NCBI GenBank assembly: GCA_963702845.1
Contig: OY969763.1
Span: 3,200,001-3,264,000, forward strand
Reading direction: 5' to 3'
DNA from: an uncultured Verrucomicrobiae bacterium
GTDB lineage: Bacteria; Verrucomicrobiota; Verrucomicrobiia; Limisphaerales; Palsa-1400
Length of the DNA stretch: 64,000 nt
Shown here: positions 10,245-61,943 of the stretch, piece by piece
How positions within the stretch are numbered: the stretch's first letter is position 1
How the letters are laid out: each line of letters begins with the position of its first letter
The notes under the pieces: generated by a model
What the model was told of the DNA's origin: nothing
Database searches by the model: none
The model's input: only the letters and a program-made list of their open reading frames with translations
Program-made: the position numbers and the translations under genes

Positions 10245-10331
10245 GCGCCCCCGCCACTCGGGCCTTTCTCGGTGGAGAAAGGGTTTATGCAATGCGTGAA
10301 AACGCGCCGCTATATAACTCAAAACCTCAAA
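10245..10331 (+). repeat. Dispersed intergenic repeat fragment (3' part of consensus)
   Basis: GCGCCCCCGCCACTCGGGCCTTTCTCGGTGGAGAAAGGGTTTATGCAATGCGTGAAAACGCGCCGCTATATAACTC aligns to 60352-60430 and 55177-55252. Confidence 0.9.
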
Positions 10332-10358
10332 CAATTTGTGTGGGACAGAGGATGACGA

Positions 10359-12362
10359 TCACGCCCGTTCGCTCGACGGTCGACACAGGTTTCGTTGCAA
10401 CTGCTCGAGCACACAATGCATCTCTCGCGCTGAACCATACCGCTCCGCCGCATCCGGATGGCAGGCTTTCAATACGACGTTGTTCAACAGGAAAAAATCT
10501 GCCGGATCTTTCTCACTTAGTAATGTGGCAGATAATTCGGGAAACAACGCCGGGCTGCGCCCTGTGCTGATCACATAAAGGACCATTCCCAGAGCATAAA
10601 TGTCTGCTTGCGGTGTCCCCGGCCGTTCGGGTGCAGGCGGCATATAGCCGGGCGTTCCGACGAGCGTGTGTTCCTCGTTTGGCGACCGGATATAGGCGAT
10701 AAGTCCCAAATCAGCGAGTTTCGGTCGTCCATTCGCAAAGACAATGTTCTGCGGCTTGATGTCACGATGCGTCATCCCCGAGCGATGAATGAAATCGAGC
10801 GTATCAGTCAGAATTAATCCGATACGCAGGCACTCCTCAATCGGCAGCCGCCGCTGTGGTGCGCGCGCGCATTCCCGGCTCAAATCACGCGGCTTATAGG
10901 CATTGGGAAACTTCTCCCAGCTGGCTTCGAGCGAGTCTCCGAGTTCCATGACGTAGTAGAAATGGCTGTCGAATTTTTTACTAACGAACTCGACTCGCAA
11001 GAGACCGGAATGTTTATCGCAAATGTCGCGATAACGCGTGACGCCCTCAAACTCGCGGTCATAAGGTCCGGAATCGTTGTCGAACTTATCGAGACTAACG
11101 ACTTTGACCGCTCGCCATTCCCCCCGTTTATTTTGCGCCAGCCAAACGGTGCCATAAGCGCCTCGACCAAATGGCGGTTCCACCAACCGATAGCCGGGGA
11201 TCTCCGGAGCTTCAACAACTGGCGCGCGTTGATTTTCCGGCTGGATTGGTGTCGTCGCATCCGTGCGCGATGCGACCAATGTCCAGACAAAGGCGACGGG
11301 CAATTGTCCTGCAACCACCAGCAGCCACGGGAACCAATAATTTGTGGCAGAACTGAGCGCGATCGACAGAACGGTCACCAGCGCGGCGATGCAAATTGCA
11401 GAAACGCAGGCGAATCGTGTTCGCAGCTTCGGCAGACCCGCGCCGATCGCTAACGCAGCGAGCAGCAGGCCGATCCATTCCAAATACGCGGAACGACGCA
11501 GCCACTCGTGGTTCGTGAGGTTCAGAAACGATGCGATAACGATTTCTGTTCCGGCCGAAGATTCACCTGTCCAACGGCTATAAGGCGTCCGGAATTTATC
11601 GGGTTCATTGTCGGCAACGGACGTTTTCACTTGTGTGCCGATGAAAACGATTTGGCCACGAAAGAAATTCGCCGGCTGCTTGAGCGCGACACTGTAACTG
11701 AGGTGAGTCCATGGCGGTTCCTTCCCATAATAACGGAGCCAACGCTCATTTGTCGTATCGGGCAGTTTGGCGCCCAGCGCCCGAGCCGCCGTTTCTGCAA
11801 GACTCGGGTATGGGCCGGGCGCGGGGAATGGCCAATGATGTCGGACGATGTTGTCTGGATCAGGATCAAGCCATGCGACGCCCCAATTTGTCCCGGAAGC
11901 GCTGTAGAAAGGCTCCGTGGGAAGGACGGGGCGCACGCCGGCAAACTCGGAATGTGCCACCAGCGCTTGCTCGGCCATGAGCACGATATGCTGCTGCCGT
12001 CGCATCGCACGCGCGAGCGCTTCGTCTTTTTGCGCGTCGCGCGGCTGCCTAAAAAAGGAATCCATGACAACCATCGCGCAATGATCGTCCGCCAATTTGT
12101 TGAGCAGTTGTGCGTGTAACGCGCGGTCCCACGGTTCACCCCGCGTTTGATGGAGCGCGTCGTAAGACTCGTTGTCCATCATGATGAACGTGACGTTGTT
12201 GGTTGCGCCACGGTTGCCGAAGAAAAATGAGTAGTCGTAGCTGGCGTTAACGAGAGGATCGGCAAACGGAGCTTTCCAAAGCAGCAGGCCGCAAAGCGCA
12301 GTCAGCGCCAGTCCGATCAGCGATCGGACAGTTTTATTGCGCATCAAGCCGTGCGAATTCAC
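10359..12362 (-). CDS. CHASE2-domain membrane sensor fused to a Ser/Thr protein kinase
   Basis: PWDRALHAQLL..D..DPDPDNIVR (CHASE2-like), 3 TM segments, then GRGAYG, AVK, HRDIKPQN, DLG, GTPGYM kinase motifs. Confidence 0.88.
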   Translation of the reverse strand: MNSHGLMRNKTVRSLIGLALTALCGLLLWKAPFADPLVNASYDYSFFFGNRGATNNVTFIMMDNESYDALHQTRGEPWDRALHAQLLNKLADDHCAMVVMDSFFRQPRDAQKDEALARAMRRQQHIVLMAEQALVAHSEFAGVRPVLPTEPFYSASGTNWGVAWLDPDPDNIVRHHWPFPAPGPYPSLAETAARALGAKLPDTTNERWLRYYGKEPPWTHLSYSVALKQPANFFRGQIVFIGTQVKTSVADNEPDKFRTPYSRWTGESSAGTEIVIASFLNLTNHEWLRRSAYLEWIGLLLAALAIGAGLPKLRTRFACVSAICIAALVTVLSIALSSATNYWFPWLLVVAGQLPVAFVWTLVASRTDATTPIQPENQRAPVVEAPEIPGYRLVEPPFGRGAYGTVWLAQNKRGEWRAVKVVSLDKFDNDSGPYDREFEGVTRYRDICDKHSGLLRVEFVSKKFDSHFYYVMELGDSLEASWEKFPNAYKPRDLSRECARAPQRRLPIEECLRIGLILTDTLDFIHRSGMTHRDIKPQNIVFANGRPKLADLGLIAYIRSPNEEHTLVGTPGYMPPAPERPGTPQADIYALGMVLYVISTGRSPALFPELSATLLSEKDPADFFLLNNVVLKACHPDAAERYGSAREMHCVLEQLQRNLCRPSSERA

Positions 12363-12500
12363 CGTTGGTTGCGCGCATCATACCGGGGCATTCGAAAAAC
12401 GCATATTATAAATTCGACAATTTAGTTGAAAGAAAGAGCAGTTTTCCAACGTATATCCCTCCTGAGGCCATCTAACAACCCGGCCTCAGGCAAAACAACA

Positions 12501-13214
12501 ATGAACAACCGAACAAAAATAATGATGGGAATCGCCGCAACAACAGCATTGCTGGTGTCATGCTCGAGCGATCAAACAACGACCAAAGCACCCGCCACCA
12601 ACAAGACAAAGGCGCCCGTTGCGCAGGTCAATAATGTTGAAACAGTCCATGTAGGTCAGAACGTCACCTTGCAGACGAAAACATCCGGAGGGGTGCAGTT
12701 CCAATGGCTTAAGAACGGCAATCCTATTCCGGGTGCAACGGACAAAACCCTGACGTTGACAGATGTTCAACCTGCAGATGGCGGCTTCTATTCTGCTGAC
12801 TACAAAAATAGCGGCGGCAAAAGATTTATGTCGCCGACAACAACTGTGCAGGTAATAGCATTGGACTCTGGTGTTCTTACCATCTATGCACCTCCGACCC
12901 CCGGTATGGGAGGCTCTGGGACAGGTTGTCCAGGCACCTACGTCGGCCTGGTCAACTACACGAAAACTATCGCCAACGGCTGGGGGTGGAAGCCCGACTT
13001 GACCACTAACATTCATACCGCCTGCGATCCTTATATGAGCGGCACGAAAGTTGAATATCTCGGGAAATCAGCTGATCGCGGTTGCGACACGAATTGCGTC
13101 ACGATCACGAGCAGTCCTCCTTCGAGCACCGCTTATCGTTTTACGATCTATTTTCGGACGGGACCTGTCCCCACCACGAACTACCCGATCCAGTTGCACG
13201 GTTTTCTCCCGTAA
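12501..13214 (+). CDS. Putative lipoprotein with an Ig-like domain and a Cys-containing C-terminal domain
   Basis: MNNRTKIMMGIAATTALLVSC lipobox-like sequence; FQWLKNGNPIPGAT..LTLTDVQPADGGFYS Ig-like motif. Confidence 0.75.
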   Translation: MNNRTKIMMGIAATTALLVSCSSDQTTTKAPATNKTKAPVAQVNNVETVHVGQNVTLQTKTSGGVQFQWLKNGNPIPGATDKTLTLTDVQPADGGFYSADYKNSGGKRFMSPTTTVQVIALDSGVLTIYAPPTPGMGGSGTGCPGTYVGLVNYTKTIANGWGWKPDLTTNIHTACDPYMSGTKVEYLGKSADRGCDTNCVTITSSPPSSTAYRFTIYFRTGPVPTTNYPIQLHGFLP

Positions 13215-13230
13215 TGGTTCAGAATTTCGG

Positions 13231-13303
13231 CCCGCGCCCCAGCGCGAAAGGCGCGTTGGGGTTCGGGTTGTTCAGGAGTGGGGATAGTTTACTCTCCCCA
13301 CTC
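13231..13303. terminator. Two hairpins between convergent genes (possible bidirectional terminator)
   Basis: CCCCAGCGCG/CGCGTTGGGG and GAGTGGGGA/TCCCCACTC stems between stops at 13214 and 13307. No strong U-tract. Confidence 0.45.
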
Positions 13304-13306
13304 TCA

Positions 13307-16300
13307 CTAAAATGACAGGCGCAGCTGAGTCATAAGCGTGCGACGATGAGGGAATTCTTCGTGTAGGTTCAGCGGATTCAAATGATAATCCTGATCCGCC
13401 ACGTTAAGCAGTGCTAACGTAACTTCCGCACGACGATGTAAGAAGCGATAACCTCCAAATATATTCATCTGCCAAAAATCGTCACCGGGTAGATCAGGAA
13501 CATATCCCTCGTTGTTTTGACTGTTCCAAATGCCTTCGGCCAAGGCGAAAAACCCGCTCGGATGATTGAAATTACTGCTCAAACGGACTTGATGAAGCAC
13601 GGCTTCGTTTCGATGTCTTGGTTGAAAATTACCGAACGTGGTGTGATCGGGCATCTGATAGAAATTTTCCTGAAACGTTGCATCGCTGACCCGATATTGG
13701 GCACCGAACGACCAAAGCGTTCCGACCAACTGGTTCGCCGTGAACTGAAGACTATCTTCGGTATAGTCGACTTTGTCGCGCATGCCTGATGGCCTGGCGA
13801 AGTCGAACTCATCGATCAAATAATCGTAAGTGTTGACCAGCTTGCGGACATTCGAATTCAGGATAGTTCCATAAATCGCCAGATAGGTCCCCGTCGGCAG
13901 TTTCTGCTCGAGGGAGAGGTTAAATGTCTCGAACGTCGCTCCCGCGCTTTCAGATGCTACAGATTCCGGGATGATGCTGCGAAAGGCCTGGGGGAAACCA
14001 GCCACCTGCGAGGGCTCTATTTGCAGGCTTTGGTCAAGCTGACTCCCTGCAACTGATGTCGTGTAAGCGAAGCGAACCGTCGTCAACTTCAGTGGTGTCC
14101 AGATCAAGCCAGCCTTGGGCGAGAATCGCTCGATCGAACGCTCAATACTGAGCAGCGGGCTGCCTTGGACCGCTTCCGGGAACTTCATCACGTCATACGC
14201 CAGGCCCCCGTCCAACTGTAGGCACTCAAGAACATTCCAGTTGTGATATGCATAAAGGCTCAGCCGATCGAAATGGGTGTGAATATCCTGATCAGCGACT
14301 GGAATGACGAAGGCGGATGCTAACATTGAAGGATACTGCTCGAAGTTTTTCGTTTCCTGTTCCCCATGCTGAACACGGCAACCCAACACTGTGTTGTGCT
14401 CGGCTGTCTGCCAGATCTGTTGAAGCTCGCCAGAATACAGCGTCAGCCTGTTTGTGAAAATCACCGGAAAAAGCGAAATATTGTCAGCCGACACCAGCGT
14501 TGGTTTTCCAGACGGGTCGTCGGGAAAAATGCGAAGGTAAGAGTTAATGCCACCTGACAAGAGGCCAAAATCATCATCCGTGCGACTGGCCAGAAAAAGG
14601 GTGTGAACGCCAGGACTCCATTCGTGATGGTAACCCAGATACGCCGTCGGATGCTGCGTCTCAAACGTTTGATAACGCAATGGATTTTTCGGATATGTAT
14701 AGTATTGAAACAGGTTGCCGGTGCCAATGTCAGCATCAACGACCTGGCCAAACAGAGAATCTTTGGGAGTAATCTGTTCCTTCAATGTCAGATATAGGAT
14801 ACGCTGTTCGTTCTGTTGGTTGGATTGCTGACCGCGATCTGAAAGATAATCGGCTCCCACGTTGTAGCTGAACTTTTCAGAGATGCCATATTGCTCCCCG
14901 CGCTGTATCCACGCCCCGCGACTCAGGTATGTCGTGTCGGATGTGACCCCAAGCCTGTTCTGTTCAAAAAACCGCGAGTTTTGATTCTCAGCCAATTCTG
15001 GCGTGAGCGTTCCGGCGGATGCAGGCGAAAGCAAATTAGCGAGCAGATACTCGATTCGCTTGGGCGTCTCATAGCGGCGAGCTAGCGTGTCAGGGTCAAT
15101 CAATTCGGCGTAACTGTTCGCCAGAAACAAATGCGCCGAATAATTCCCGTAGTCGTAGTTGACGCTGCGTGAGGCTTCACGATAGGCCACGTCATTCATC
15201 CCGGCATCCCGATAAATCGATGCCAGGTTCGCGCTGCGCACCGCCTGGTCCTGGTCCAGCAGCAATTGCGAACGGTAAACGCTCAGGTTGTTGTTCAGCG
15301 CTTGCGATGTTTCCAGATCGCGGATGGCGTCGTTGATTTCGTTCTTGTTGCGTTTGACCAACGCCGAATACAGCCACGCCGTCGGATCATTTGGGTCAAG
15401 CTTCTTTGCCAAACGCAGTTCTTTTTCGGCGCGCGGATAATCGTTCACCGTCGCGTAAGCCTTGCCTAAATAACTGCGCAATTCAGCGCGTTGCGGTTCC
15501 AGCGCAGCCGCGACTAACAAGTCATCCTTACCTGCTTTGATGTCGTTCATCTGGATCTTGCACAAGCCGCGTCCGAGCCACGCGTTGGCCATCGCGCCAT
15601 CAACGGCAATCGCACGATCAAACCAATCGATTGCTTCGCATGGCTTATTTTGGCCCGCGAGAATAAAACCTTTCAGTGACAATGCTTCCGGATTGCGCGG
15701 CGTGAACTCGAAGCTCTTGTTCAAGGCTTCGAGGGCTTTATCCGTCCGGCCAAAGCTAAATTCCAACTCGGCCACGCGCGCCCATGCGAAACCGGACTCT
15801 GGCGACTGTTGTGCCGCGCGCTTTGCCAAATCCAATGCCGCTTTCAGTGAAACGTCCGGAATGGCGCGAGACTGTTCGTAATAAGAACGCGCCAGCAGTT
15901 CAGACGTGAGCTTCGTCTCGCCAGAAGCCGGCGGAGCCTGCCGCTTGACCGCTGCGACGAGTGTTCGCAATGAGACAGCCCGCGCATCCGCGCCTTGCAG
16001 GGAGGCCAAATCTACTTGTGCTTTTTCAACCTGTCCGACCCCAAGCAACAAAGCCGCATGATAAATCGACGCGCTATCGGACGCAGGGGGTTGGCTTGGA
16101 AAATTTGCCAGCGCCTGAAGCACGTCGCCGCGCCGATATTCAATCAACGAATCAGAAAACGTTTTCTGTTCGTCATTACTGAAGTTCAAATCTGCCGGGT
16201 CCAGCACGACAGGATAATACAACGCCCATTGCAAAAGATTGTTCGCGATGAATCCCGTGCCGCGCACCGGCTCCTGGCCGACAGCGGCAGTTGCTTGCTC

Positions 16301-16942
16301 GCCGTTGGTCAGCACCAAAGTCGAATGTTCGTTCCCAAAACTCACCTTGCCATCGATCACTGACACCGTGCTTCGCTCCGTCTCATTCACTGCCAGCACA
16401 AACTCTGTGCCTTCAACCCCCGCGATCGCACCGCGCGTGATCACACGGATGCGCCCGGGACGGTCGCGATGAAAGAACGACGTGATTCCTTTCAGCAAAT
16501 GCAGACCGTTGTCGGCTCCAGTCTCATGCGGCTCCAACACCTCCACTTCGGTCGACGCACCAAACGACATGACGCTTTGACCCGACCATCGTAGGGCGAC
16601 GCGGCTGTCCGGTCCGGTCCGCAAACGATCAAACGCATGCAGCCATTGGTTCGTTTGTGCCACCCGCCAGTCCGCGGTGTTTCGCGCCAGCACCTGGACC
16701 TTGCCTTGAATCTCGACGATCCGAATTTGATTGGTTGCTGGCGACTCTTTCGCCAGAGCGGTTGTGACGGTTGATAAAATCAATGCAGCCGCCGCGTACA
16801 ATAAAACACATCTGCGATTGTTGGTTGTCAATCGATGCCTGTTGGTTGTCGCATGCAAAACACATGCGGGGTTGAGCGGCGTAATTTGCCGACCCGCGAA
16901 GTTTTTGCAATCCAAACCTGCCCAACCGTTCTTTGACTGCAC
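13307..16942 (-). CDS. FecR-domain + TPR + TonB-dependent-receptor-like outer-membrane beta-barrel protein
   Basis: DRLRTGPDSRVAL..AGVEGTEF..VSVIDGKV (FecR), TPR block, aromatic beta-strand-rich C-terminal half ending in LRLSF. Start uncertain. Confidence 0.8.
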   Translation of the reverse strand: MQSKNGWAGLDCKNFAGRQITPLNPACVLHATTNRHRLTTNNRRCVLLYAAAALILSTVTTALAKESPATNQIRIVEIQGKVQVLARNTADWRVAQTNQWLHAFDRLRTGPDSRVALRWSGQSVMSFGASTEVEVLEPHETGADNGLHLLKGITSFFHRDRPGRIRVITRGAIAGVEGTEFVLAVNETERSTVSVIDGKVSFGNEHSTLVLTNGEQATAAVGQEPVRGTGFIANNLLQWALYYPVVLDPADLNFSNDEQKTFSDSLIEYRRGDVLQALANFPSQPPASDSASIYHAALLLGVGQVEKAQVDLASLQGADARAVSLRTLVAAVKRQAPPASGETKLTSELLARSYYEQSRAIPDVSLKAALDLAKRAAQQSPESGFAWARVAELEFSFGRTDKALEALNKSFEFTPRNPEALSLKGFILAGQNKPCEAIDWFDRAIAVDGAMANAWLGRGLCKIQMNDIKAGKDDLLVAAALEPQRAELRSYLGKAYATVNDYPRAEKELRLAKKLDPNDPTAWLYSALVKRNKNEINDAIRDLETSQALNNNLSVYRSQLLLDQDQAVRSANLASIYRDAGMNDVAYREASRSVNYDYGNYSAHLFLANSYAELIDPDTLARRYETPKRIEYLLANLLSPASAGTLTPELAENQNSRFFEQNRLGVTSDTTYLSRGAWIQRGEQYGISEKFSYNVGADYLSDRGQQSNQQNEQRILYLTLKEQITPKDSLFGQVVDADIGTGNLFQYYTYPKNPLRYQTFETQHPTAYLGYHHEWSPGVHTLFLASRTDDDFGLLSGGINSYLRIFPDDPSGKPTLVSADNISLFPVIFTNRLTLYSGELQQIWQTAEHNTVLGCRVQHGEQETKNFEQYPSMLASAFVIPVADQDIHTHFDRLSLYAYHNWNVLECLQLDGGLAYDVMKFPEAVQGSPLLSIERSIERFSPKAGLIWTPLKLTTVRFAYTTSVAGSQLDQSLQIEPSQVAGFPQAFRSIIPESVASESAGATFETFNLSLEQKLPTGTYLAIYGTILNSNVRKLVNTYDYLIDEFDFARPSGMRDKVDYTEDSLQFTANQLVGTLWSFGAQYRVSDATFQENFYQMPDHTTFGNFQPRHRNEAVLHQVRLSSNFNHPSGFFALAEGIWNSQNNEGYVPDLPGDDFWQMNIFGGYRFLHRRAEVTLALLNVADQDYHLNPLNLHEEFPHRRTLMTQLRLSF

Positions 16943-16988
16943 TAGTCAATAAAATTGCAAAACACCGTGGGGTTGCGATACATAGTCC

Positions 16989-17612
16989 ATGCCCAATCAT
17001 CGAGACGAGTTAATTCCTACGCGCGCGTCGCTCCTGGCGCGTCTCAAGAATCTCGAAGACCACGACAGTTGGCAGGATTTCTTTGATACCTATTGGAAGC
17101 TCATCTACGGCATCTGCGTAAATCGCGGGCTGACCCCAACCGAGGCCGAAGATGTCGTCCAGGAAACCATGTGCACCGCGATGAAGTCGATGCCTGGCTT
17201 CAAGTATGATCGAAGCGTCGGCTCTTTTAAGTCGTGGCTGTTGAATATGGTCCGTTGGCGCATCGCTGACCAATTCCGAAAACGATCGGTCGTTCGAAAT
17301 TTACCCCAGGATACTGGAATTGATGGTTCCGATGGCCTTGACGAACTTGTCGATAAACAAACCGAAGATTTCCAGGCGGTTTGGGATCAACAGTGGGAAC
17401 AGGCGCTTTTCGATGCCGCCGTCGACAAAACCAGGCGTGCGATCGACCCGGAAAAATATCGGGTGTTTGATCTCCTGGTGAACCATCAATGGCCCGCCGC
17501 CAAAGTAGCCGAAAACCTCAAAGTCTCTGTTGACCACGTTTATCTCGTCAAACACCGCGTGACTCAGCTCGTCAAAGCGGAAGTCGAGAGGCTCAAGCAG
17601 CATGTGACTTAG
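16989..17612 (+). CDS. ECF-family RNA polymerase sigma-70 factor
   Basis: TRASLLARL..WQDFFDTY..AEDVVQE..GSFKSWL (region 2) and C-terminal HTH KVAENLKVSVDHVYLVKHR. Confidence 0.92.
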   Translation: MPNHRDELIPTRASLLARLKNLEDHDSWQDFFDTYWKLIYGICVNRGLTPTEAEDVVQETMCTAMKSMPGFKYDRSVGSFKSWLLNMVRWRIADQFRKRSVVRNLPQDTGIDGSDGLDELVDKQTEDFQAVWDQQWEQALFDAAVDKTRRAIDPEKYRVFDLLVNHQWPAAKVAENLKVSVDHVYLVKHRVTQLVKAEVERLKQHVT

Positions 17613-18235
17613 CCACAGGGGCTTGAGGTCGCGACATTAGATTTTCCAGATTTTTTGAAAGATTCTTTGGAAGTCAGCCGTATCCATGGTGTGGGCGATC
17701 GCTGTGCGAGGCCGCATCGGTGCGAGCCCTGCTAACGGGAAGCGCGTTATCCACAAATTCGCAACCTCGGGTTGGCGTTTGCGGAGAACGTCTTATGTGT
17801 TGCAAATGGGGCTGGGGAAACTGTTGTGCTTCGGCACAACAGCTCCCTCGGCATGGCTTTTGATCCATGCTACTTGGACAACGCCGCTGCCAGCGGCTCC
17901 GGTTGGAGAATACGTGAAGCGTCGTACGGCATGCGAGGCCGACGTTCGGCTCCTCTGCCGCTTTGGATTTCTTCAAACGCCCTATTAAATCGAAAAAACC
18001 AACAACCCGATAAAACGCCTGTTTCCACTACCCACCCGCTACCCCTCCACTATTTCTCGGAACCCAGATGTAACTCTGCCTGAATAAAACGGCGATAGTT
18101 CCCGCTTGCATAACGACCCAGCCTGTCGCGTCGAACCGGACGGGAGCCCGTCGAGGCGTCCGTGGGAAGGAAATCAGCAGTTGGTTGTTTCAGTCGGGCG
18201 GAATCAGTGCGAGAATCGCGGGCTGGATTGCCATT

Positions 18236-18946
18236 ATGAAAATTTCATCCGCCATATTTGATCGTAGCGCTCCGGATCTGGATTCGTGTCCCGACGAGTC
18301 GCTGGCGGAATTCGCCTTTATCGGGAGGTCGAACGTGGGGAAGTCCTCGCTGCTGAACATGCTCGCGGGCAAAGACGGTTTGGCGCGCGTATCTCCCATG
18401 CCGGGCTTCACCAAGCTGATCAACATTTTCACGATCAACAAGAAATGGCGGTTGGTGGATTTGCCTGGCTACGGGTTCGCGCAGGTGGCGCGGCAGGACA
18501 GCGACCGGTTCAACCAAGCGGTGCTCCGCTACCTGGAACACCGGAAGAATCTTTCCGGCGTCTTCGTGCTCATCGACTCGAGCGTGCCTCCGCAGGAAAT
18601 TGATATCGACTTCCTGAAGTGGCTCACGGGCCGCTCAATCCCGTTGGTTCTGGTTTTTACCAAGACCGACCGGATGTCGCCCTCAAAAGTGCAGGCGAAC
18701 ATCGCGACGTTCACCGATCGCATCGCGACGTCGTTTGAAGCGCTGCCGGAGATTTTCACATGCTCAGCAAAGACCGGGGCGGGCCGGAATGAACTGCTGG
18801 AAATGATCGACCAGTCGCTGGCCGCAGAGCCGCTCGAAAGTTCCGCGGAGACGGAGTCGGTGACAGACGGCGAGTCAGCCGTTCCCGAGAAAATAATCGC
18901 GCCCGTGAATCACCCCGAGCATCTGAAGCGCACGCGCCCGTGGTGA
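18236..18946 (+). CDS. engB: Ribosome biogenesis GTP-binding protein YihA/YsxC
   Basis: EFAFIGRSNVGKSSLLN, DLPGYGFA, TKTD motifs. Confidence 0.92.
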   Translation: MKISSAIFDRSAPDLDSCPDESLAEFAFIGRSNVGKSSLLNMLAGKDGLARVSPMPGFTKLINIFTINKKWRLVDLPGYGFAQVARQDSDRFNQAVLRYLEHRKNLSGVFVLIDSSVPPQEIDIDFLKWLTGRSIPLVLVFTKTDRMSPSKVQANIATFTDRIATSFEALPEIFTCSAKTGAGRNELLEMIDQSLAAEPLESSAETESVTDGESAVPEKIIAPVNHPEHLKRTRPW

Positions 18947-19045
18947 GATTGCAAAGTGGGCGGTTAAAAACGACGTCGTATTGACAAATTGACTCCCCGT
19001 TGCAACCCGACGAGTCATCCGAACTGACGCCGATTGTTCTGCTTT

Positions 19046-20767: not shown

Positions 20768-20891
20768 AAATACCGGTATACACAGCCCCCGGCGGTTGGC
20801 GATTGGTAATGGAAAGACCGATAACAGTCCGTCCCGCCGAGATCAAGGCTCAACCGTTTTCCGATAACCAAGCGTCTTATTGATGCGCCAC

Positions 20892-21195: not shown

Positions 21196-21268
21196 TTGCT
21201 ACCACTTTCAACAATCATGCGGATTCGCCGACCAGAACCTGTTCCAACAATTTGCCTCTCGGCTGAGC

Positions 21269-49715: not shown

Positions 49716-49827
49716 AATAGGACGATTAAACTGGTTGTCTTGGCGGGCGGCAAGAAAAACGTAGGGAGAACACTGACATTCACTGTGAATTATTAGTCTA
49801 AGCGTTGCAGCTGCAGTCCAAAAAAAT

Positions 49828-53600: not shown

Positions 53601-54959
53601 GGCTCGCTCCTGGATACAACCAAGCCGACAATTAGTATCACTTCGCCCGCGAACAAAGGCGCATTCAGCTCGCCCTTGATCCAAATCTTGGGATCGGCGC
53701 ACGATTCACTGGGAACGGTAAAAAGCGGAGTTGTGCTGGTACGGTATTCGTTGAATGGCGGATCACAACAACTGGCGGGAACAATAAACAAATTCACCAA
53801 TTGGATGGAGAGCGTCACTTTGCAGCCAGGTTGGAACTCGTTTGTCGCGCAGGCACTGGACTTCCGCGGCAATGGGTCGCTCCTGGCCAGCAACATTTAT
53901 TTCTATGGCGCGACGGCAAATGCAGTCGGTAAATACAACGGTTTATTCTATGAAACCAATGGGTCTGGTGCGCCAGTCATCACCGAGCTAAGCGCGGGTG
54001 CTGTTCTGAACGTGAACGTCACAATCAGTCGCACCTATAGCGGCAGAATTTATCTGGCTGGGACGAATTATGCATTGGCAGGAAGTTTTGATCTCGCCGG
54101 AAACAGCGCCGCGACCGTCAGCCGGGCGCATTCAGGCAAGCCGGATTTGGCCGTGAACCTGCACGTTGATTGGACCGGCGCGACCAAGCAGATGACGGGG
54201 ACCGTTTCATGCCTGGCCGAAGGATGGTCCTCATCCTTGCTCGCCGATCTCGCCGTTTATAGCAGGGCGAATCCGTATCCTTCACCGGCTCGTTACACCA
54301 TGGCCATTCCACCTGCGACCAACGCGCCGACGGATTCACCCGGCGGCTACGGTTATGGGCTGGTTACGAATACGCCAGCTGGAATGATCTCGCTGACGGG
54401 CGCACTGGCGGATTCCACGCCGCTTTTGCAATCGGTGCCGATTGCACAGGGCGGTCGTTGGCCGTTGTATGTGAATTTATATAAAGGTCAGGGATTGCTG
54501 GAAGGTTGGCTGGATTTTAGCAGCGGTGTGCCTGCTGGTGAGGTGACTTGGATTAAACCAGCAAATCCTGCTGGAGTAAAACTGACGACTTACTTGGGCG
54601 GTTTCACCAACATGGTGACTGTCTTTGGATCTGTCTACGCACCAGTTGCACCTGCGATTACACCTGCCCACGGCCTGTTAGAGATTACTGATGGCTCGGG
54701 ATTGAGTTTGCCGCTCACGATCAATGCCGAGGTCAATAATAATAACACGATCGTATCATTGCCGGGCGCGACGAACACGTTGACCGGTTCGATTGCAGCC
54801 CCGACCGGATTGCTCAAGGTTAGTTTTCACCGGGTCGGCAAGGCTACAAAAAACGCCGTAGGTGTGGTGTTGCAGAGCAGTAATGCTGCATACGGGGCGT
54901 TTATCGGCAACAACGATGGAACGGGTAAGACCAACACGGGGGCAATTTATCTGCATTGA
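50609..54959 (+). CDS. Large secreted Kelch + putative-Ig + GloVer-type tandem repeat protein, broken by frameshifts within 52640-53275 (pseudogene or consensus error)
   Basis: ATLL.DGRVLVVGG..AEIYDP Kelch repeats; FAVTSGSLP.GLSL Ig units; 7 LILSGNTLYGT..GTVFAVNTDGTGFTTLHSF repeats spread over ORFs 50609-52759, 52647-52985, 52823-53272 and 53157-54959; C-terminal GKYNGLFYE domain. Confidence 0.8.
52245..53360 (+). repeat. Intragenic tandem repeat, 7 units of 150-184 bp
   Basis: TTGATTTTATCGGGCAACAC at 52322, 52475, 52647, 52798, 52982, 53132 and 53286. Confidence 0.95.
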
Positions 54960-55002
54960 GACACAACTTGGGAGCGGAAGTGGCTGCCAAAAATAACCAT
55001 AT

Positions 55003-55495
55003 CCTTCACGAGTTAAGTCTAGCCCCGGGCGAGTAGTGACAGAATTGTGGGTGAATCCGCGGAAATTGTGCAGCTACGTCTTGAAATTTTTTCTGAAATA
55101 TCCGAATCTCTTCCTGTCAACCGAACCCTGCGGTGCAGGGTTCGGTTGACCGGCCAACTCATTCCGGTGGAATGCAGCGCCACCGCCATTCGGGCCTTTC
55201 TCGGTGAGAGAGGGTTTATGCGATGCGTGAAAACGCGCCGCTCATATAACTCTTGAGCGTATAAAAAAATTCTGTGGCTGTTCGGAGCGAGGATTTTTGG
55301 AATTTGGCGAGGCTTTGACGAAGGATCATACCCGCAGCGGTCTGTGACTGAGTCGAAACGAAGCCAAAACTCAAAAAGACCGCTCTCCCCTCTGTTCAGC
55401 CGAATGGACACAGCATTTTTTTATACGCTCTGAAACTCAAAGAACCCTAAGAATCCGTCAGTGAACGGTTGACATTCGCCGACACAACATTCCGG
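55003..55495 (+). repeat. Dispersed intergenic repeat (central + 3' part) interrupted by a MITE
   Basis: Bridges the 5'-half copies (CAGAATTGTGGG..CAGCTACGTCTTGAAAT) and the 3' copies (TGCGTGAAAACGCG..AAGAATCCGTCA). Confidence 0.92.
55255..55430. mobile_element. 176-bp MITE
   Basis: Left end GAGCGTATAAAAAAATTCTGTGGCTGTTCGG; reverse complement of right end GAGCGTATAAAAAAATGCTGTGTCCATTCGG; absent from homologous sites at 32511 and 60425. No perfect target duplication seen. Confidence 0.85.
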
Positions 55496-55880
55496 TTTGG
55501 CACTTGCAGATATTTCGTCGCGATTGCTCTTGTCATAGAAAATGTCAAACATAAGATTCATTCATCCTAACTCTACTGCACATCGGAGCGGACTTGTATG
55601 CGTTCAACGCATCGGCACGGTAATAGGCATAGACAAAAGAATTAATCAATCGGAAGACATGGACGGGAATCAAATCCTTGGCCCTTCACATTATGAAAAC
55701 CATCACACTCCTCGCTTTAACGTTTCTGAGCGTCTGCTGTATTAACGCTTCCAGAACCATCTTCGCGGGCCGGGGTAACTATGGAAGCACCGGCAGCGCG
55801 GCGCGGTTCTAATTACCCGAGAACGTTACCACTGCCTCTACCGGACAATCCTCACCGTCGATATTCCTCCAAAAAAAGCT

Positions 55881-58800
55881 ATGAAAATCCAATCCATGTC
55901 TTCCTGTAAAATGTTCTTGGCCATACTGGCTCTAGCCATGCTCATCGGGATGCCGATGGCCGCCCGGGCGACCGTCACCATCAGCACCCAGCCGGTCAGC
56001 CTGGCGCTGACCCTCGGGGACCAGGCCGTCTTCAACGTCACCGCCTCCGGCGCCGGGACGCTTGCCTACCAGTGGAAAAAGAACGGGAACTCCATCGGCG
56101 GCGCCACCCTCGCGTATCTTCTGATCAACCCCGTGGCCTTCAGCGATGCGGGAAATTACACCGTGGACGTGACCGACACCGGCGGCACCGTGACCAGTAG
56201 CGCGGCTGGGCTGGGGGTCAATTCACCCAAGAGCGGCAGTCTGGATTTCTCCTTTGCCGGCGGCTCTGTTGTGGACGGCACGATCCAATCCGTGGCGGTG
56301 CAGAGCGATGGCAAGGTGCTCATCGGGGGAGGGTTCAGCACCGTCAACGGGACGTCGCGCAACTTCATCGCGCGTCTGAACAGTGACGGCACGTTGGACA
56401 CCGGATTTGGCAACGGCCTGGCCGGGGCCGACAGCACGGTCAATTCCGTGGCGGTGCAGAGCGATGGCAAGGTGCTCATCGGGGGAGCTTTCACCACCGT
56501 CAACGGGACGGCGCGCAACGGTATCGCGCGTTTGAACAGCGACGGCACGTTGGACACCGGATTTGGCAACGGCCTGGCCGGGGCCATCGCGGTCGTATCC
56601 GTGGCGGTGCAGAGCGATGGCAAGGTGCTCATCGGGGGAGGGTTCACCACCGTCAACGGGACGGCGCGCGGCAGTATCGCGCGTCTGAACAGCGACGGCA
56701 CTTTGGACACCACCTTTGGCAACGGCTTGGTCGGGGCCAACAACACGGTCAGATCCGTGGCGGTGCAGAGTGATGGCAAGGTGCTCATCGGAGGAGATTT
56801 CACCCTGGTCAACGGGACGGCGAGCGGGAGAATAGCGCGTCTGAACAGCGACGGCACTTTGGACACCACCTTTGGCAACGGCCTGGCCGGGGCCAACAAC
56901 ATGGTCTTTTCCGTGGCGGTGCAGAGTGATGGCAAGGTGCTCATCGGGGGAATTTTCCTCACCGTCAACGGGACGGTGCGAGCATACCTCGCCCGCCTCT
57001 ATAATGACTCCAGCGCAGATGCGGACCTCTCCGCTTTGACCCTTGGCTCGGGCTCGTTGTCGCCCACCTTTGCCTCGGGCACCATCACCTATTCCAACGC
57101 CATCGCTCTCAGCGCGAACAGCTTGACAGTCACACCCACCAGCAGCGCTGCAAGTGCCGTCATCCGCGTCCGCGTTAACGGAGGTGGCTACGCGACCGTG
57201 GCCTCGGCTACACCGAGCAGTGCCCTGCCGCTCAACGTCGGCCCCAACATCATCGAAGTGCAAGTCACTTCCGCTGGTTCCACTGTAGTCAAAACCTACA
57301 GCGTCACCGTGAATGCCGTTGATACTAACGCCCCGGTCATCACCCTCAGCGGCAACGCCTCAGTCACAGCGGAATGCCACACCTCCTATATCGATCTTGG
57401 CGCAACGGCTACCGACGACTTTGCCGGCAGTGTAGCCGTGACACCCGGCGGGAGCGTCGATATCAACAGCGTGGGCGACTATACTCTCAGCTATGTCGCT
57501 ACCGACCCAAGCGGCAATTCCGCCACCAACACCCGCGCCGTGCATGTGGTAGACACGACCGCGCCAAACATAACCGTCACCGGCAACGATCCGCTGATTG
57601 TCGAATGCCACGGCACGTTCTCCGATCCCGGTGCCACCGCGTCTGACACCTGCGCGGGCAACTTGACCGGCAGCATCAGCACCAGCGGTTCCGTCAATGC
57701 CAACGCGGTCGGTTCTTATACACTGACCTACAGCGTGTCGGATGGTTTCAACAGCACCTCTGCCACTCGCATTGTGACTGTGGGCGACTCGATTGCTCCG
57801 AGCGTTACCCTGAACGGTGCACCTGATGTCACCGTGGAATGTCATGGCGTCTACACCGAACTCGGTGCGACGGCCAGCGATTCCTGCGACGCCAGCGTTA
57901 CAACGGCCACCATCACCGGTGGATCGGTCAATGCGAACCTCGCTGGTGATTACACCTTGACCTATTCTGCGACCGATTCCGCGGGCAACAACAGCAGCTC
58001 GACCCGCGTGGTGACGGTGAGTGACGCTACGCCGCCGACGGTGGTGGCAAACGCGACCAATGTCATCGTTGAATGTCACGGGACGTTTACCGACGCCGGT
58101 GCAACGGTGGGAGATACCTGCGATTCTAATCCAGTGGTCGTAACCAATAACCCGGTCAACGACGATACAGTCGGTGTCTACACGGTCACTTACACCGCCA
58201 CCGACGCGGGCGGCAACAGCGCTTCGGCCACGACGCTAGTCACCGTCAGCGACACCCAGGCGCCAATCATTAGTGTTCTTCCTGGGGCCGTGACCACCGA
58301 ATGTCACGGCAGCTACACTGATCCCGGAGCGACGGCAAACGACGCATGCGAAGGCTCGGTCTCGGTCAATACCAGTGGCACGGTGGATGTGAATACGGTG
58401 GGTGATTACACCCTGACCTACAGCGCGACGGACAGCGCCAGCAACGCCTCAATCTCCTATCGCACTGTAACAGTCGCCGATACAACGGCTCCCCTTGTTA
58501 CCCTGAATGGTGGCGATTCTACCATTTGCCAGCTCAGTTCTTACTCGGAAGCCGGCGCGACGGCGAACGACAGTTGCGAAGGCAACCTAAGCGTGACGGT
58601 GACGGGTTCAGTCGATCCGGGCACCGTTGGTGCCTACACCTTGACCTACACCGCAACGGATTCGAGCAACAACTCAGGTTCACAAATCCGCGTCGTGAAC
58701 GTCATCGCTTGCACGCCGGTCATCAGCGTCCAACCGCAATCACAAAACCTCATCGCCAGCCAGACCCTGACCTTGAGTGTCACTGCTTCAGGCACGGGCA

Positions 58801-60095
58801 TCACCTATCAATGGAAGAAAGACGGTTCACCGATTGCCAACGCCACCGATTCGTCCTATTCCAAGGTGAACATCACCACGTCTGATGCTGGCTTTTACAG
58901 CGTCGATGTCACCGTCGGCGGTACCACTCCCAGCGATCCGGCGATGATCACCGTCAGCAATCTCGGCATCATCACTCAACCGCTCTCACAAAACGGCGTG
59001 GTCGGCACTACCAACACTTTCACGGTCGTTGCCGCAGGGACGCCGACGCTTCGCTATCAATGGCTGAAAAACGGCGTGAAGATTCCCAAAGCCACAAATT
59101 CCACGTGTGCCATCAAGGTCGCTGCGACCAGCGGAGCAATTTATTCGTGTGTGGTCAGCAATGGACCGGTTTCAACGGTGACCAGTTCTGGCGCCGCTCT
59201 CGCCATTTATGCGAAGACCACCATCACCAACCCGGCGAACAACAAGAACAAGACGCCAGGCAACAACGTGACCTTCAAAGCCGTTGGCCACGGGACCGGC
59301 ACGCTCAGCTACCAATGGGAATTCAATCCAGGCACGGGATTCGCAGGTCTGTCCGACAGCGCCCGCATCATCGGCTCCACTTCAAGTAACCTGACGATCA
59401 TCAACATTCAGTCAGGGGATATCGGAACCTACCGTTGCACTGCGGCTAATGTCGCCTCTTCCGCCACGTCGGACGGTATCGCGCATGGTATCTTGAGCGA
59501 GATTCCAGACGCCACCGCACCGGTCGTGACGATCCTGGCCCCGCTGAACAAGGCCAAAATGACTAATGGATTGGCTGTGACCGGCCAGACGAACGTCGCG
59601 CCCGAGGTTGATATCTCCGGCAAAGCGGTTGACAACGGATTGATCACCGACGTCACCCTGACACGAACAGTGCCGTTGAGTGCTGGCACGGCTGCCGTCA
59701 TGACTCACTCGAAACCCGGCAAAGTCACCTGGACCAACCATGTGACACTGGTGGATGGCACCAACACCTTTGTCGCCATGGCGACCGACTCAGCCGGCCT
59801 CATCGGGACCAGTGTCGCCCGGACCTACTACTTGCTCACACCGGCGACTCTTGCCGTCAACATCACCGGCAACGCCGGCAAGAGCAAAGTAGTTGGAAAA
59901 GCCTCAGCCTTTGGCACCCCGACCAACGGTGTGTCGTTGGACATCGGCATCGGCTACACGATCACAGCACAGCCGGCGGCGGGCAAAGTGTTCCTCAACT
60001 GGACCGACGCCTTCGACAATATTCTCACGACGAGCAAGACAAACAACTTCATCATGAGCAGTGGTTTGATGTTGAAAGCGAACTTCGCTCCGTAA
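55881..60095 (+). CDS. Large secreted protein: Ig, delta-60 repeats, cadherin-like beta-sandwich, 6 DUF5011-like repeats and further Ig domains
   Basis: Signal peptide; VAVQSDGKVLIGG.F..IARLNSDGTLDT repeats; ADLSALTL..LSPTF..LNVGPNII.VQVT; VECH..GATA.D.C repeats; YQWKKDG Ig domains. Confidence 0.88.
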   Translation: MKIQSMSSCKMFLAILALAMLIGMPMAARATVTISTQPVSLALTLGDQAVFNVTASGAGTLAYQWKKNGNSIGGATLAYLLINPVAFSDAGNYTVDVTDTGGTVTSSAAGLGVNSPKSGSLDFSFAGGSVVDGTIQSVAVQSDGKVLIGGGFSTVNGTSRNFIARLNSDGTLDTGFGNGLAGADSTVNSVAVQSDGKVLIGGAFTTVNGTARNGIARLNSDGTLDTGFGNGLAGAIAVVSVAVQSDGKVLIGGGFTTVNGTARGSIARLNSDGTLDTTFGNGLVGANNTVRSVAVQSDGKVLIGGDFTLVNGTASGRIARLNSDGTLDTTFGNGLAGANNMVFSVAVQSDGKVLIGGIFLTVNGTVRAYLARLYNDSSADADLSALTLGSGSLSPTFASGTITYSNAIALSANSLTVTPTSSAASAVIRVRVNGGGYATVASATPSSALPLNVGPNIIEVQVTSAGSTVVKTYSVTVNAVDTNAPVITLSGNASVTAECHTSYIDLGATATDDFAGSVAVTPGGSVDINSVGDYTLSYVATDPSGNSATNTRAVHVVDTTAPNITVTGNDPLIVECHGTFSDPGATASDTCAGNLTGSISTSGSVNANAVGSYTLTYSVSDGFNSTSATRIVTVGDSIAPSVTLNGAPDVTVECHGVYTELGATASDSCDASVTTATITGGSVNANLAGDYTLTYSATDSAGNNSSSTRVVTVSDATPPTVVANATNVIVECHGTFTDAGATVGDTCDSNPVVVTNNPVNDDTVGVYTVTYTATDAGGNSASATTLVTVSDTQAPIISVLPGAVTTECHGSYTDPGATANDACEGSVSVNTSGTVDVNTVGDYTLTYSATDSASNASISYRTVTVADTTAPLVTLNGGDSTICQLSSYSEAGATANDSCEGNLSVTVTGSVDPGTVGAYTLTYTATDSSNNSGSQIRVVNVIACTPVISVQPQSQNLIASQTLTLSVTASGTGITYQWKKDGSPIANATDSSYSKVNITTSDAGFYSVDVTVGGTTPSDPAMITVSNLGIITQPLSQNGVVGTTNTFTVVAAGTPTLRYQWLKNGVKIPKATNSTCAIKVAATSGAIYSCVVSNGPVSTVTSSGAALAIYAKTTITNPANNKNKTPGNNVTFKAVGHGTGTLSYQWEFNPGTGFAGLSDSARIIGSTSSNLTIINIQSGDIGTYRCTAANVASSATSDGIAHGILSEIPDATAPVVTILAPLNKAKMTNGLAVTGQTNVAPEVDISGKAVDNGLITDVTLTRTVPLSAGTAAVMTHSKPGKVTWTNHVTLVDGTNTFVAMATDSAGLIGTSVARTYYLLTPATLAVNITGNAGKSKVVGKASAFGTPTNGVSLDIGIGYTITAQPAAGKVFLNWTDAFDNILTTSKTNNFIMSSGLMLKANFAP
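56291..57000 (+). repeat. Intragenic tandem repeat (delta-60-like), 5 units of 153-156 bp
   Basis: CGTGGCGGTGCAGAG at 56291, 56447, 56600, 56756 and 56912, all in frame. Confidence 0.95.
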
Positions 60096-60149: not shown

Positions 60150-60286
60150 GTTGGTAACCCCATGTGCAGTGCCAAGGTGCAAGCAGTAGTAACGACCTGC
60201 TCGGAATTACTTCGACTTCTTACGACCGAATACGCCGCAATTCTCAAACATTTTCTTGCATTGTTTTTTAAGATTTATTAAATATT

Positions 60287-60532
60287 TTCCTGTCAATCAA
60301 CCCTGCGGTGCAGGGTTTGTGCGACCGGCCAACTCATTCCGGTGGAATGCAGCGCCCCCGCCACTCGGGCCTTTCTCGGTGAGAGAGGGTTTAAGCGAAT
60401 GCGTGAAAACGCGTCCGCCATATAACTCTAGAACTCTAAAACTCAAAGAATCCTAAGAATCCGTCAACGAACTGTTGTCGTTCGCTGACACCAACGTGCC
60501 GGCGTTTGTACCGGCTTTGAAAGATTGCAGCT
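60287..60532 (+). repeat. Dispersed repeat copy contiguous with the HTH gene (putative native context)
   Basis: TTCCTGTCAATCAACCCTGCGGTGCAGGG..AAGAATCCTAAGAATCCGTCAACGAACTGTTGTCGTTCGCTGAC leading to the ATG at 60533. Confidence 0.9.
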
Positions 60533-60943
60533 ATGCACACACCAGAGACCGTCCGTCGTTTTGTCGAACTCCGCGCCCGCGGTTGGACCTATGCGCGCCT
60601 GGAGACCGAACTCAATGTCACCAAACCCACCCTCATCGACTGGAGCCGCAAGCACCAGTTCGAGATCCAAAACCTTCACGCTATCGAGCTCGAAGCGATG
60701 CGCGCAAAGTGGCTCGCCTCGACATCGGAACATGTCGATGCCGTGGGCGAACAGTTGCGCCGTGTCGAAACCGAGCTCGCCACCCGCAATCTCACAGAAC
60801 TAACCACGCCTCAACTCATGAGCGCTGCCCGCAACCTGCGTCGCCAGATCGAGCAAGCCACCGGCCCGCTCCAGTTCAGCGTTCCCGTAAACGAAATTCC
60901 TTCCGCCGAATTCCATGAACAGGTCCAGGATTGGAAAGCCTGA
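60533..60943 (+). CDS. Small helix-turn-helix DNA-binding protein with a helical tail
   Basis: FVELRARGWTYARLETELNVTKPTLIDW is an HTH pattern like IS/terminase-small-subunit N-termini. No catalytic transposase domain visible. Confidence 0.75.
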   Translation: MHTPETVRRFVELRARGWTYARLETELNVTKPTLIDWSRKHQFEIQNLHAIELEAMRAKWLASTSEHVDAVGEQLRRVETELATRNLTELTTPQLMSAARNLRRQIEQATGPLQFSVPVNEIPSAEFHEQVQDWKA

Positions 60944-60959
60944 ACCACCAAATCGGTTG

Positions 60960-61126
60960 CCGGTAAAGAAAAGGTAAAGAAATGGTAAAGTTTTTATCGG
61001 TCGGGCGTGCGTGCGAACCGGACGTTCCGGACGCGCGCGCCGCTCTTCGGAGGTCAGGTGAGTAAACGTAAGTTGCGCTGTCGGACGTTCCGACCGGTAA
61101 AGAAAAAGTAAACAAATGGTAAAGTT
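60960..61126 (+). repeat. Two 33-bp direct repeats, each three phased 11-bp GGTAAAGAAAW units (iteron-like)
   Basis: CCGGTAAAGAAAAGGTAAAGAAATGGTAAAGTT (60960-60992) and CCGGTAAAGAAAAAGTAAACAAATGGTAAAGTT (61094-61126). Confidence 0.9.
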
Positions 61127-61943
61127 CCAGCCCATGCTCCGACGTCGACGCGATGCATCTCGCTCCGTTGTGCGACGGCACGTTCATTACCACATGCGTC
61201 GTCTCAACCGCCCGTGCCTTCGGAATCTGCCCGGCTACCGGCGCGGTCCCGACGACTTATCTAAAGCCATCACTGCCATGAACCGCGCCATCCGCGCCCA
61301 TCGCCGACTAGCCAAGCTGGCTCCTGAAATCTTCGACTCTACCGAAGTGAACCGCCTCGCTCACCGCCGCAGGCAAGACGCCGAATGGCAAGCCGTTTGG
61401 GAACCCGCACTGATCGAAGTCTACGGACCGTCTCCTCCCGAAGAGTCCCATCGTGACCCTTTAGCAGACCAACCACAGTTACCACGATGTGCTCGCACCC
61501 GACGTGTCATTGAGCGCGAATACGCCGAATGGAAATTCTGGATGGAAGCCAGCCACATCGCCCAAAAACGCTACCAACAACGTCGGCCTCATGCGCTGCC
61601 GTCACTCTGCCAACTGGCCCGACTCCTTGATGCCGCGATGACTCTCGGCCGTCTCGCCTGCGGATCGTTCAATCCCGCTTCAGAACCGCCCGCCCACGCG
61701 CAAGCGTTGACAGATCTCAAACGCGCCTACGGCCCCGAAGCTTTAGCCGCAAGAGAGGCCGAAGCTTTGGAGAGACAGAAGGCTGCGCCGCCCCCGCAAC
61801 CGCCTCCAGTTCCACCCCCACCTTACGCCGATACAAAAAGAGACATCATCCAGGTTCCTTTGCCACCACGCCCCCTTCCGCGAAATCGGGCCGACGAACA
61901 CCCGGTTGCGCGCCTGTTTAACGACCTGTTCGGAGTGCAATAA
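61116..61943 (+). CDS. Hypothetical Arg-rich helical protein with Pro-rich tail
   Basis: 275-aa ORF downstream of the HTH gene. No recognisable family; start uncertain. A fragment recurs at 28065. Confidence 0.55.
   Translation: MVKFQPMLRRRRDASRSVVRRHVHYHMRRLNRPCLRNLPGYRRGPDDLSKAITAMNRAIRAHRRLAKLAPEIFDSTEVNRLAHRRRQDAEWQAVWEPALIEVYGPSPPEESHRDPLADQPQLPRCARTRRVIEREYAEWKFWMEASHIAQKRYQQRRPHALPSLCQLARLLDAAMTLGRLACGSFNPASEPPAHAQALTDLKRAYGPEALAAREAEALERQKAAPPPQPPPVPPPPYADTKRDIIQVPLPPRPLPRNRADEHPVARLFNDLFGVQ

What the first reader, a model, noticed from the sequence alone, without database searches (positions are those of the whole stretch)
10245..61943. Cassette-like gene array punctuated by ten co-oriented fragments of one ~0.5-kb non-coding element, with no integrase in view
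Seen: homologous fragments at 10245-10331, 20892-21195, 32465-32578, 36297-36331, 40226-40269, 46109-46192, 49121-49240, 49828-50436, 55003-55495 and 60287-60532. All are intergenic and on the + strand whatever the orientation of neighbouring genes. They overlap into one consensus that ends at the HTH gene start (60533). The 1-3-gene blocks between most copies are functionally unrelated (kinases, sulfatase, adhesins, methyltransferase, peptidase). Known: integrons and additive islands at tRNAs leave repeated attachment remnants, but these fragments resemble neither attC sites nor tRNA. Inference: this may be an undescribed gene-capture platform or recombination hotspot in which the element anchors serial cargo acquisition.
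Basis: partly seen in the sequence, partly recalled or inferred. Interest (0 to 1): 0.88.

Follow-up and report, generated by a model that had tools for sequence, protein, structure and literature searches.

The report
Insertion-sequence stubs plus new leader RNA
The repeated pieces are leftover ends of an RNA-guided jumping gene (IS110 family) fused to a small two-gene unit with a previously uncatalogued folded RNA, and they lie scattered through a stretch of swapped-in genes rather than forming a new kind of integron.

Summary
The ten fragments are real, co-oriented and strongly clustered (16 of 24 genome copies in 140 kb). They are not one non-coding element. The 3' part is a promoter and a structured leader RNA (repeated C-GGN-G triloop hairpins; 33 of 61 pairs covary in 37 relatives; not in Rfam) heading an HTH gene and a 275-aa orphan gene. 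The chimera exists only in this region, where a second cluster faces the other way. Best reading: a transposase-less, expanded IS110 locus in an accessory-gene hotspot, built by repeated one-sided insertions and local duplication, possibly driven in trans by a resident six-copy IS110 whose donor ends match at 17 of 18 positions. Cassette gain or loss as units was not shown. The scan noted IS1111 left-end stubs before in another genome (e1-4544140), nothing on this element. The leader RNA is the newer result.

The parts
10245..10331 (+). Middle of the leader RNA (short hairpin, last GGN hairpin, next hairpin)
   Evidence: 89% to 60352-60439; G002 homology to the neighbouring kinase block begins 26 bp away
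20892..21054 (+). IS110-family left end and dead 5' stub of its transposase (~33 codons, in-frame stop)
   Evidence: 70% over 158 bp to the element in L245; translation; NF033542 hits for L245 ORFs
21067..21196 (+). Upstream arm, sigma-70-like promoter and first GGN hairpin of the leader RNA, fused to the IS stub
28065..28132 (+). Scrap of the 275-aa gene (codons 52-71)
   Evidence: 87% to 61269-61337; tblastn
28120..28183 (+). IS110-family right-end stub, fused directly to the gene scrap
   Evidence: found by a profile of two other copies, E 3e-5; alignment
30667..30762 (+). IS110-family right-end stub (decayed core)
   Evidence: (E 0.0097)
32465..32578 (+). 3' part of the leader
   Evidence: 82% to 60378-60502
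32626..32668 (+). IS110-family right-end stub about 50 bp after the leader piece
   Evidence: strict motif match, one of 4 in the genome
36292..36335 (+). IS110 left end only
   Evidence: 89% over 36 bp to L245 element; sharp 5' boundary
40224..40269 (+). First GGN hairpin of the leader only
46107..46196 (+). IS110 left end with the hairpin that covers the transposase start
   Evidence: 91% over 64 bp to L245 element
49120..49254 (+). IS110 left end and first codons of the transposase
   Evidence: 79% over 125 bp; tblastn 56% identity
49826..50435 (+). IS110 left end, ~300-bp insert of another palindromic repeat, transposase stub, arm, promoter and part of hairpin 1
55000..55510 (+). Tail of the stub, arm, promoter and leader RNA, interrupted at about 55266-55428 by a 160-bp MITE-like insert
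   Evidence: RNA model hit E 1.4e-12; 94% over 344 bp to the copy at genome 3128 kb
60264..60532 (+). Promoter-like region and structured leader RNA (three C-GGU-G hairpins in this copy; four in most relatives)
   Evidence: RNA model hit E 1.4e-11; covariation in relatives
60533..60943 (+). 136-aa HTH plus long-helix protein (P0001)
   Evidence: 528 homologs; model pLDDT 79; HTH_23/Terminase_5 look-alikes
60944..61115 (+). Spacer with short direct repeats of about 11-bp period
   Evidence: seen in the sequence
61116..61943 (+). 275-aa helical orphan protein with arginine-rich N-terminus (P0002), constant partner of the HTH gene
   Evidence: 75 of 125 HTH loci; 261 representatives; no family or fold match
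10359..60095 (.). Accessory genes between the pieces: Ser/Thr and histidine kinases, TPR proteins, sulfatase, Ig-repeat surface proteins, methyltransferase, M3 peptidase, EngB-like GTPase
   Evidence: Pfam; mostly absent from G001/G002

Best explanation
An IS110-family element of IS1111-type build inserted next to a mobile promoter-RNA-HTH-orphan unit, lost its interior (transposase and guide RNA), and left a composite: left end, transposase stub, leader RNA, two genes, right end (the parts are shown; the single ancestral composite is inferred). Later rounds of one-sided IS110 recombination, local duplication and deletion multiplied pieces of this composite in one orientation and left accessory genes between them (inferred). 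The enzyme came in trans, from the now-lost cognate IS or from a resident intact IS110 with nearly the same donor ends (inferred). The leader RNA is a separate, older feature; most likely it is a multi-site operator in the 5' UTR bound by one of the unit's own proteins to control its expression (inferred by analogy with Aca2/Aca1).
For: All 9 genome copies of the left piece begin at the same base with unrelated left flanks and ragged 3' ends and match the start of an IS110 transposase gene; intact relatives pass the NF033542 cut-off and share the left-end motif and hairpin. A right-end motif found in 14 of 14 IS loci examined recurs 5 times in genome 3.129-3.233 Mb, always in the cluster's orientation, nowhere else below E 0.1, 0 hits on the reversed genome. 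L151, from another source, holds the same left and right ends about 200 bp apart. The stub-to-RNA junction is the same in four copies and found only in this region. Right ends follow RNA-unit pieces directly at 28065-28183, 32465-32668 and genome 3129 kb. Six resident IS110 copies are 95-100% identical; their donor junction equals the stubs' at 17 of 18 positions. One-sided donor boundaries, reuse of the left terminus and tandem non-coding units are described for expanded IS110 loci (bioRxiv 10.64898/2026.08.14.744561, sections 8-9). 3' ends lengthen monotonically in all 5 co-oriented copies of the second cluster and the last 5 of the window.
Against: No complete composite survives, and no cognate transposase is in the genome (nearest 35% identical). 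Four of ten fragments hold no IS sequence and have ragged ends on both sides. Stubs are 80-90% alike, so the events are old. No empty target site was found at up to 4 mismatches. Left-end stubs are common elsewhere without arrays (4 in this genome; most of 27 loci). None of 125 HTH loci from other genomes has a strict IS end in a telling place, so the unit normally spreads by other means. The staircase is not significant over all ten window copies (tau 0.2, p 0.48) and the run of five was chosen afterwards. The right-end profile was built from the copies it scores. No strain-level comparison or reads were available.
Confidence: 0.55

Rival explanations
1. PeSL-like shuffling: after one fusion event, host homologous recombination between promoter-plus-hairpin repeats excised and inserted cargo circles; the IS ends are passive hitch-hikers.
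For: Seven of ten fragments carry promoter/hairpin parts; breakpoints in the RNA part are scattered; copies are mosaics (the 55003 copy shares its insert with the 3128-kb copy but its upstream arm with the 3146-kb copy); neighbours overlap in the last five window copies. PeSL mini-circles are the precedent (PMC2839356, passages).
Against: Five copies start exactly at the IS left end and right ends recur, which homologous recombination does not require; the five left-hand neighbours share no overlap; several pieces are only 35-45 bp.
Confidence: 0.25
2. Passive debris: repeats pile up in a dispensable region of a repeat-rich genome; a few local duplications give the shared orientation, and the pieces had no part in bringing the genes in.
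Against: 14 pieces in the window share one orientation and 16 of 24 loci cluster; two breakpoints lie 1 bp and 26 bp from a piece.
Confidence: 0.15
3. An integron-like platform with its own unknown site-specific recombinase.
For: Co-orientation, 1-3 unrelated genes per block, clustering.
Against: No common crossover point in the RNA part; no recombinase nearby; the only fixed boundaries are IS110 ends; neither unit protein resembles a recombinase; relatives carry 1-5 dispersed copies, not arrays.
Confidence: 0.05

Closest known systems
Expanded IS110 loci (Hu et al., bioRxiv 10.64898/2026.08.14.744561; abstract and sections 8-9 read)
   Same: Progressive local growth, tandem non-coding units, one-sided (left-only or right-only) donor boundaries, reuse of the left terminus, cargo between ends.
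   Different: Their loci keep a transposase; here it is absent from the array and no cognate copy is in the genome. The unit carried is an RNA-HTH-orphan operon.
ISPpu9/ssr9 modular transposition (PMC12288879; abstract read)
   Same: A small RNA module that uses IS110 ends and a transposase in trans to spread.
   Different: Ssr9 regulates the transposase and lies in the IS; this RNA has no match in 17 IS110 loci and in other genomes occurs without IS ends.
IS1111-type IS110-family elements (PMC11187229; passages read)
   Same: Short left end, long non-coding region downstream of the transposase, single orientation at target.
   Different: Only ends and a stub remain; no ISfinder name could be checked.
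PeSL cassettes of T4-type phages (PMC2839356; passages read)
   Same: Repeated promoter-plus-stem-loop units between accessory genes in a plastic region.
   Different: Bacterial chromosome, kilobase cargo on either strand, fragments rather than whole units; circles not shown.
Aca2/Aca1 5'-UTR RNA motifs bound by HTH proteins (PMC13551039; abstract and passages read)
   Same: Covarying hairpins starting at the predicted transcription start of an HTH-encoding operon.
   Different: Larger RNA with three to four identical triloops; no acr gene or phage context; binding untested.

Membership tests
IS110 family (IS1111 type), as remnant ends | Homology to a DEDD IS110 transposase | tested here: met
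   Stub matches L245 ORF; NF033542 E 3.9e-21, under the cut-off because split; Pfam gave nothing; intact relatives L270 and resident L262 exceed the cut-off
IS110 family (IS1111 type), as remnant ends | Sharp left and right ends around a short core | tested here: met
   9 of 9 left copies share the boundary; right-end motif in 14 of 14 IS loci and 5 stubs
IS110 family (IS1111 type), as remnant ends | Long non-coding region downstream of the transposase | tested here: met
   Seen in intact relatives and the resident IS; absent from the window
IS110 family (IS1111 type), as remnant ends | Intact transposase and guide RNA in cis | tested here: not met
   Only ~33 codons; no cognate copy in G000
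IS110 family (IS1111 type), as remnant ends | Specific target site, empty copies identifiable | tested here: inconclusive
   Flanks are partly conserved but no empty site at up to 4 mismatches
IS110 family (IS1111 type), as remnant ends | Circular intermediates | not testable with these tools
   No sequencing run could be laid on the window
Integron / CALIN | Integron integrase next to the array | tested here: not met
Integron / CALIN | attC sites with one fixed crossover | tested here: not met
   Ragged ends; the only fixed ends are IS ends; attC box rules recalled, no attC model run
Additive islands at tRNA | Repeats of a tRNA 3' end | tested here: not met
   No tRNA in window; no duplicate of the nearest tRNA-Ser end in the region
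Known Rfam RNA family | Match at gathering score | tested here: not met
IS110 bridge/seek RNA | RNA lies in the IS non-coding region | tested here: not met
   0 hits of the leader model in 17 IS110 loci
Aca-type HTH/RNA operator | HTH protein binds the 5'-UTR hairpins | not testable with these tools
   Needs a binding assay
Phage small terminase | Fold or family match and a large terminase partner | tested here: inconclusive
   Atlas look-alikes with Terminase_5; best Foldseek row Sf6 gp1 at E 0.8; no large terminase among neighbours; none in viral contigs

The most novel reading that the evidence does not exclude
The array is a live, enzyme-free gene-capture platform: scattered left and right ends are read in trans by the resident six-copy IS110, whose donor ends match at 17 of 18 positions, so any stretch between them, including a 2143-aa surface protein bracketed by the left end at 20892 and the right end at 28165, can be circularised and re-inserted, while the triloop RNA unit rides along as a selfish passenger and supplies promoters.
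Probability: 0.2. Interest if true: 0.8.

Novelty: new variant of a known kind. Interest (0 to 1): 0.58.

Why it matters
It would extend IS110-driven locus growth to arrays with no transposase in cis, a form that transposase-anchored surveys would miss, and it gives a direct test (resident IS plus natural ends). Independently, it yields a strongly covarying RNA family with repeated identical triloops tied to an HTH gene across one Verrucomicrobiota order, a ready candidate for RNA-binding by an HTH or arginine-rich protein.

Tried and rejected
Rfam on the window, at E up to 10 on 54900-62100, and on 11 related loci: nothing real. A cobalamin-riboswitch resemblance (recalled) was dropped on these results. 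REP or attC reading of the left hairpin: dropped once it mapped to an IS110 start. Its orientation against the replication fork in 9 of 9 copies rests on about 5 independent loci and was not used. Prophage origin of the RNA unit: no match in IMG/VR by protein or two DNA patterns. Small-terminase/pac idea: no significant fold match. P0002 fold: only generic helical rows, best Z 8.0. Promoter scan of 60100-62100 found 0 sites. Sequencing runs: none was listed. One inversion does not explain the opposite polarity of the second cluster: the G002 join would flip only genome 3176-3210 kb. Literature searches for this RNA or array listed nothing describing it; the library lacks most subscription papers and no supplement was opened, so RNA-motif catalogues outside Rfam are unchecked. 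No complex prediction was run.
Full report
Setting. The window is 3,200,001-3,264,000 of a one-contig 6.03-Mb genome. Close protein relatives are labelled Limisphaerales or Verrucomicrobiales.

Observation. Self-BLASTN recovers all ten fragments on the + strand. Profiles of three parts (left piece 98 bp, linker 161 bp, right piece 274 bp) give 24 loci in the genome: 10 here, 6 at 3.125-3.152 Mb (5 on the minus strand), 8 elsewhere on both strands. 16 of 24 fall in 140 kb, against at most 6 in 5000 random placements. The genome is rich in such repeats: 860 intergenic intervals in 144 families.

The consensus is a chimera. The left piece was sought in other genomes (13 stretches; 12 of 301 genomes with only 2 candidates scored each). 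In L245 and L236 it runs straight into a transposase gene that hits the IS110 model NF033542 (E 3.9e-21 and 3.7e-7, below the cut-off; Pfam gave nothing). The L245 element matches window 20897-21054, 36297-36331, 46114-46177, 49117-49240 and 49825-49892; 20957-21100 translates to a decayed transposase start with a stop. All 9 genome copies begin at the same base. Intact relatives in 17 of 301 genomes share the left motif and hairpin and have a long downstream non-coding region; one of three tested and the resident IS exceed the cut-off, two fall just under. Their right-end motif appears in 14 of 14 loci examined (13 of the 22 new loci plus the resident). A profile from two genome copies found four more places; a profile of five copies plus L151 gives those five, two weak places at E 0.19 and 0.49, and none on the reversed genome. 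Three are in the window on +, two at genome 3129 and 3180 kb on minus. L151 carries the same left and right ends about 200 bp apart, tying them to one family.

The right piece is a structured leader RNA. Of 112 HTH loci with upstream sequence, 58 show the first-hairpin motif; 50 distinct leaders were extracted and 37 aligned (near-duplicates and shorter variants left out). 33 of 61 predicted pairs change on both sides; 97% of cells pair against 87% in shuffles (0 of 500) and 42-47% in slid controls (relatedness can inflate such counts). G-U pairs outnumber A-C 413 to 14 and the + strand folds better in 37 of 37 (the structure was derived on +). Four hairpins end in C-GGN-G in 36, 35, 37 and 36 of 37 sequences. 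29 of 48 leaders have a sigma-70-like pair of boxes just upstream (no chance control). The window's copies are a shorter three-hairpin variant, hit at E 1e-11 to 1e-12. Against: the 60292-60535 copy folds better on the minus strand (z -4.4 versus -1.8), because of its 3' half. The model finds the RNA in 8 of 151 genomes of the order and 3 of 31 of the family; the HTH gene in 32 of 301. Of 17 model hits inspected, 7 are followed by the HTH gene or its start, 6 are RNA without it, 3 look like chance and 1 was printed in the wrong orientation. The 275-aa gene accompanies 75 of 125 HTH loci; no other neighbour recurs in more than 5 of 107 loci apart from spurious frames over the unit. Sibling copies are alike from just upstream of the promoter to the second gene's stop. 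No Rfam match, no viral contig, no match in 17 IS110 loci. Neither protein has a family or fold match that names a function.

How the array looks. Left to right: RNA piece; left end+stub+RNA; gene scrap+right end; right end; RNA+right end; left end; RNA; left end; left end+stub; left end+stub+RNA; stub+RNA; whole unit. The stub-to-RNA junction is identical in four copies and confined to genome 3.146-3.255 Mb, so one fusion was copied locally. RNA-side breakpoints are scattered. 3' ends lengthen in order in the second cluster (5 of 5) and in the last five window copies, but not over all ten (p 0.48).

Cargo. G002 (67% complete) shares 3.5 kb at 83% and 0.8 kb at 90% of 60 kb, G001 (73%) nothing comparable; three control regions share 8-14 of 20 kb with G002, mostly at 77-81%. 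Shared patches at 3.125-3.175 Mb are 84-92% alike, which suggests recent exchange. Two of four assessable breakpoints lie 26 bp and 1 bp from a piece; the G002 contigs hold no piece there. In G002 other RNA-unit pieces sit at synteny breaks where G000 has none (L164-L166). Gain or loss as units is therefore not shown.

Mechanism. Shown: IS110 ends, stub, RNA, fusion, clustering, polarity, absence of a cognate transposase (nearest families 35% and 30%) and of a nearby recombinase. Inferred: repeated one-sided IS110 events plus duplication, as described for expanded IS110 loci (bioRxiv 10.64898/2026.08.14.744561, sections 8-9) and for ssr9 (PMC12288879, abstract). Six resident IS110 copies, 95-100% identical, have a donor junction equal at 17 of 18 positions. 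The PeSL route (PMC2839356, passages) and IS26 translocatable units (PMC4196232, search listing only) are the homologous-recombination analogues. For the RNA, the Aca precedent (PMC13551039, abstract and passages) makes an autoregulatory operator the most likely role (about 0.5; alternatives are a protein-titrating RNA or an antitermination signal).

Verdict. A real feature, simpler in its recombination part than proposed and with an unexpected RNA. New variant of a known kind; interest 0.58.

Noticed in passing
G000 3125388-3180110 (L186, L228, L229, L188): Second cluster of the same pieces on the minus strand, with two right-end stubs; polarity switches between genome 3180 and 3210 kb.
   Followed up: yes
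G000 2550889-2552612: Second complete promoter-RNA-HTH-orphan unit, 88% identical, with no IS ends found.
   Followed up: partly
L262; G000 443, 1729, 2187, 3667, 4072, 4308 kb: Six intact IS110 copies, five nearly identical; four are preceded by similar sequences that by recall resemble attC ends.
   Followed up: partly
G000 812, 877, 1163, 1556, 2104 kb (L008, L010, L012, L014): Five more distant HTH paralogs (33% to P0001) with a different shared upstream region; no hit of the RNA model in the four loci tested.
   Followed up: partly
L227:3012-3530 and 12 other places: Family of dispersed small genes that by recall resemble Mu gp27-type small terminases; no Pfam hit at 1e-5 for this copy.
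   Followed up: no
window 55266-55428: 160-bp insert with long terminal inverted repeats, shared with the 3128-kb copy and found in G003 (L171, L172).
   Followed up: partly
window 49916-50221: Insert with a palindromic repeat that recurs at genome 845, 3164, 3854 and 3861 kb.
   Followed up: no
L188:8617-9261: Y1_Tnp (IS200/RAYT-like) gene between the two clusters.
   Followed up: no
L231-L259: Left-end-only stubs of this IS are common across the order; few of 27 loci keep a transposase and several end at contig breaks (the search selects for left ends).
   Followed up: partly
L214-L217 (G130): Four RNA copies that have lost the HTH gene, two of them 97% identical over 485 bp, suggesting RNA-only derivatives still spread.
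   Followed up: partly
window 50609-54959: Kelch/Ig surface-protein ORFs overlap in different frames across a 160-bp tandem repeat, possibly one frameshifted gene.
   Followed up: no
L161 (G002:C38): The gene at genome 3176-3178 kb lies inverted next to the kinase at window 10359, 70 bp apart.
   Followed up: partly
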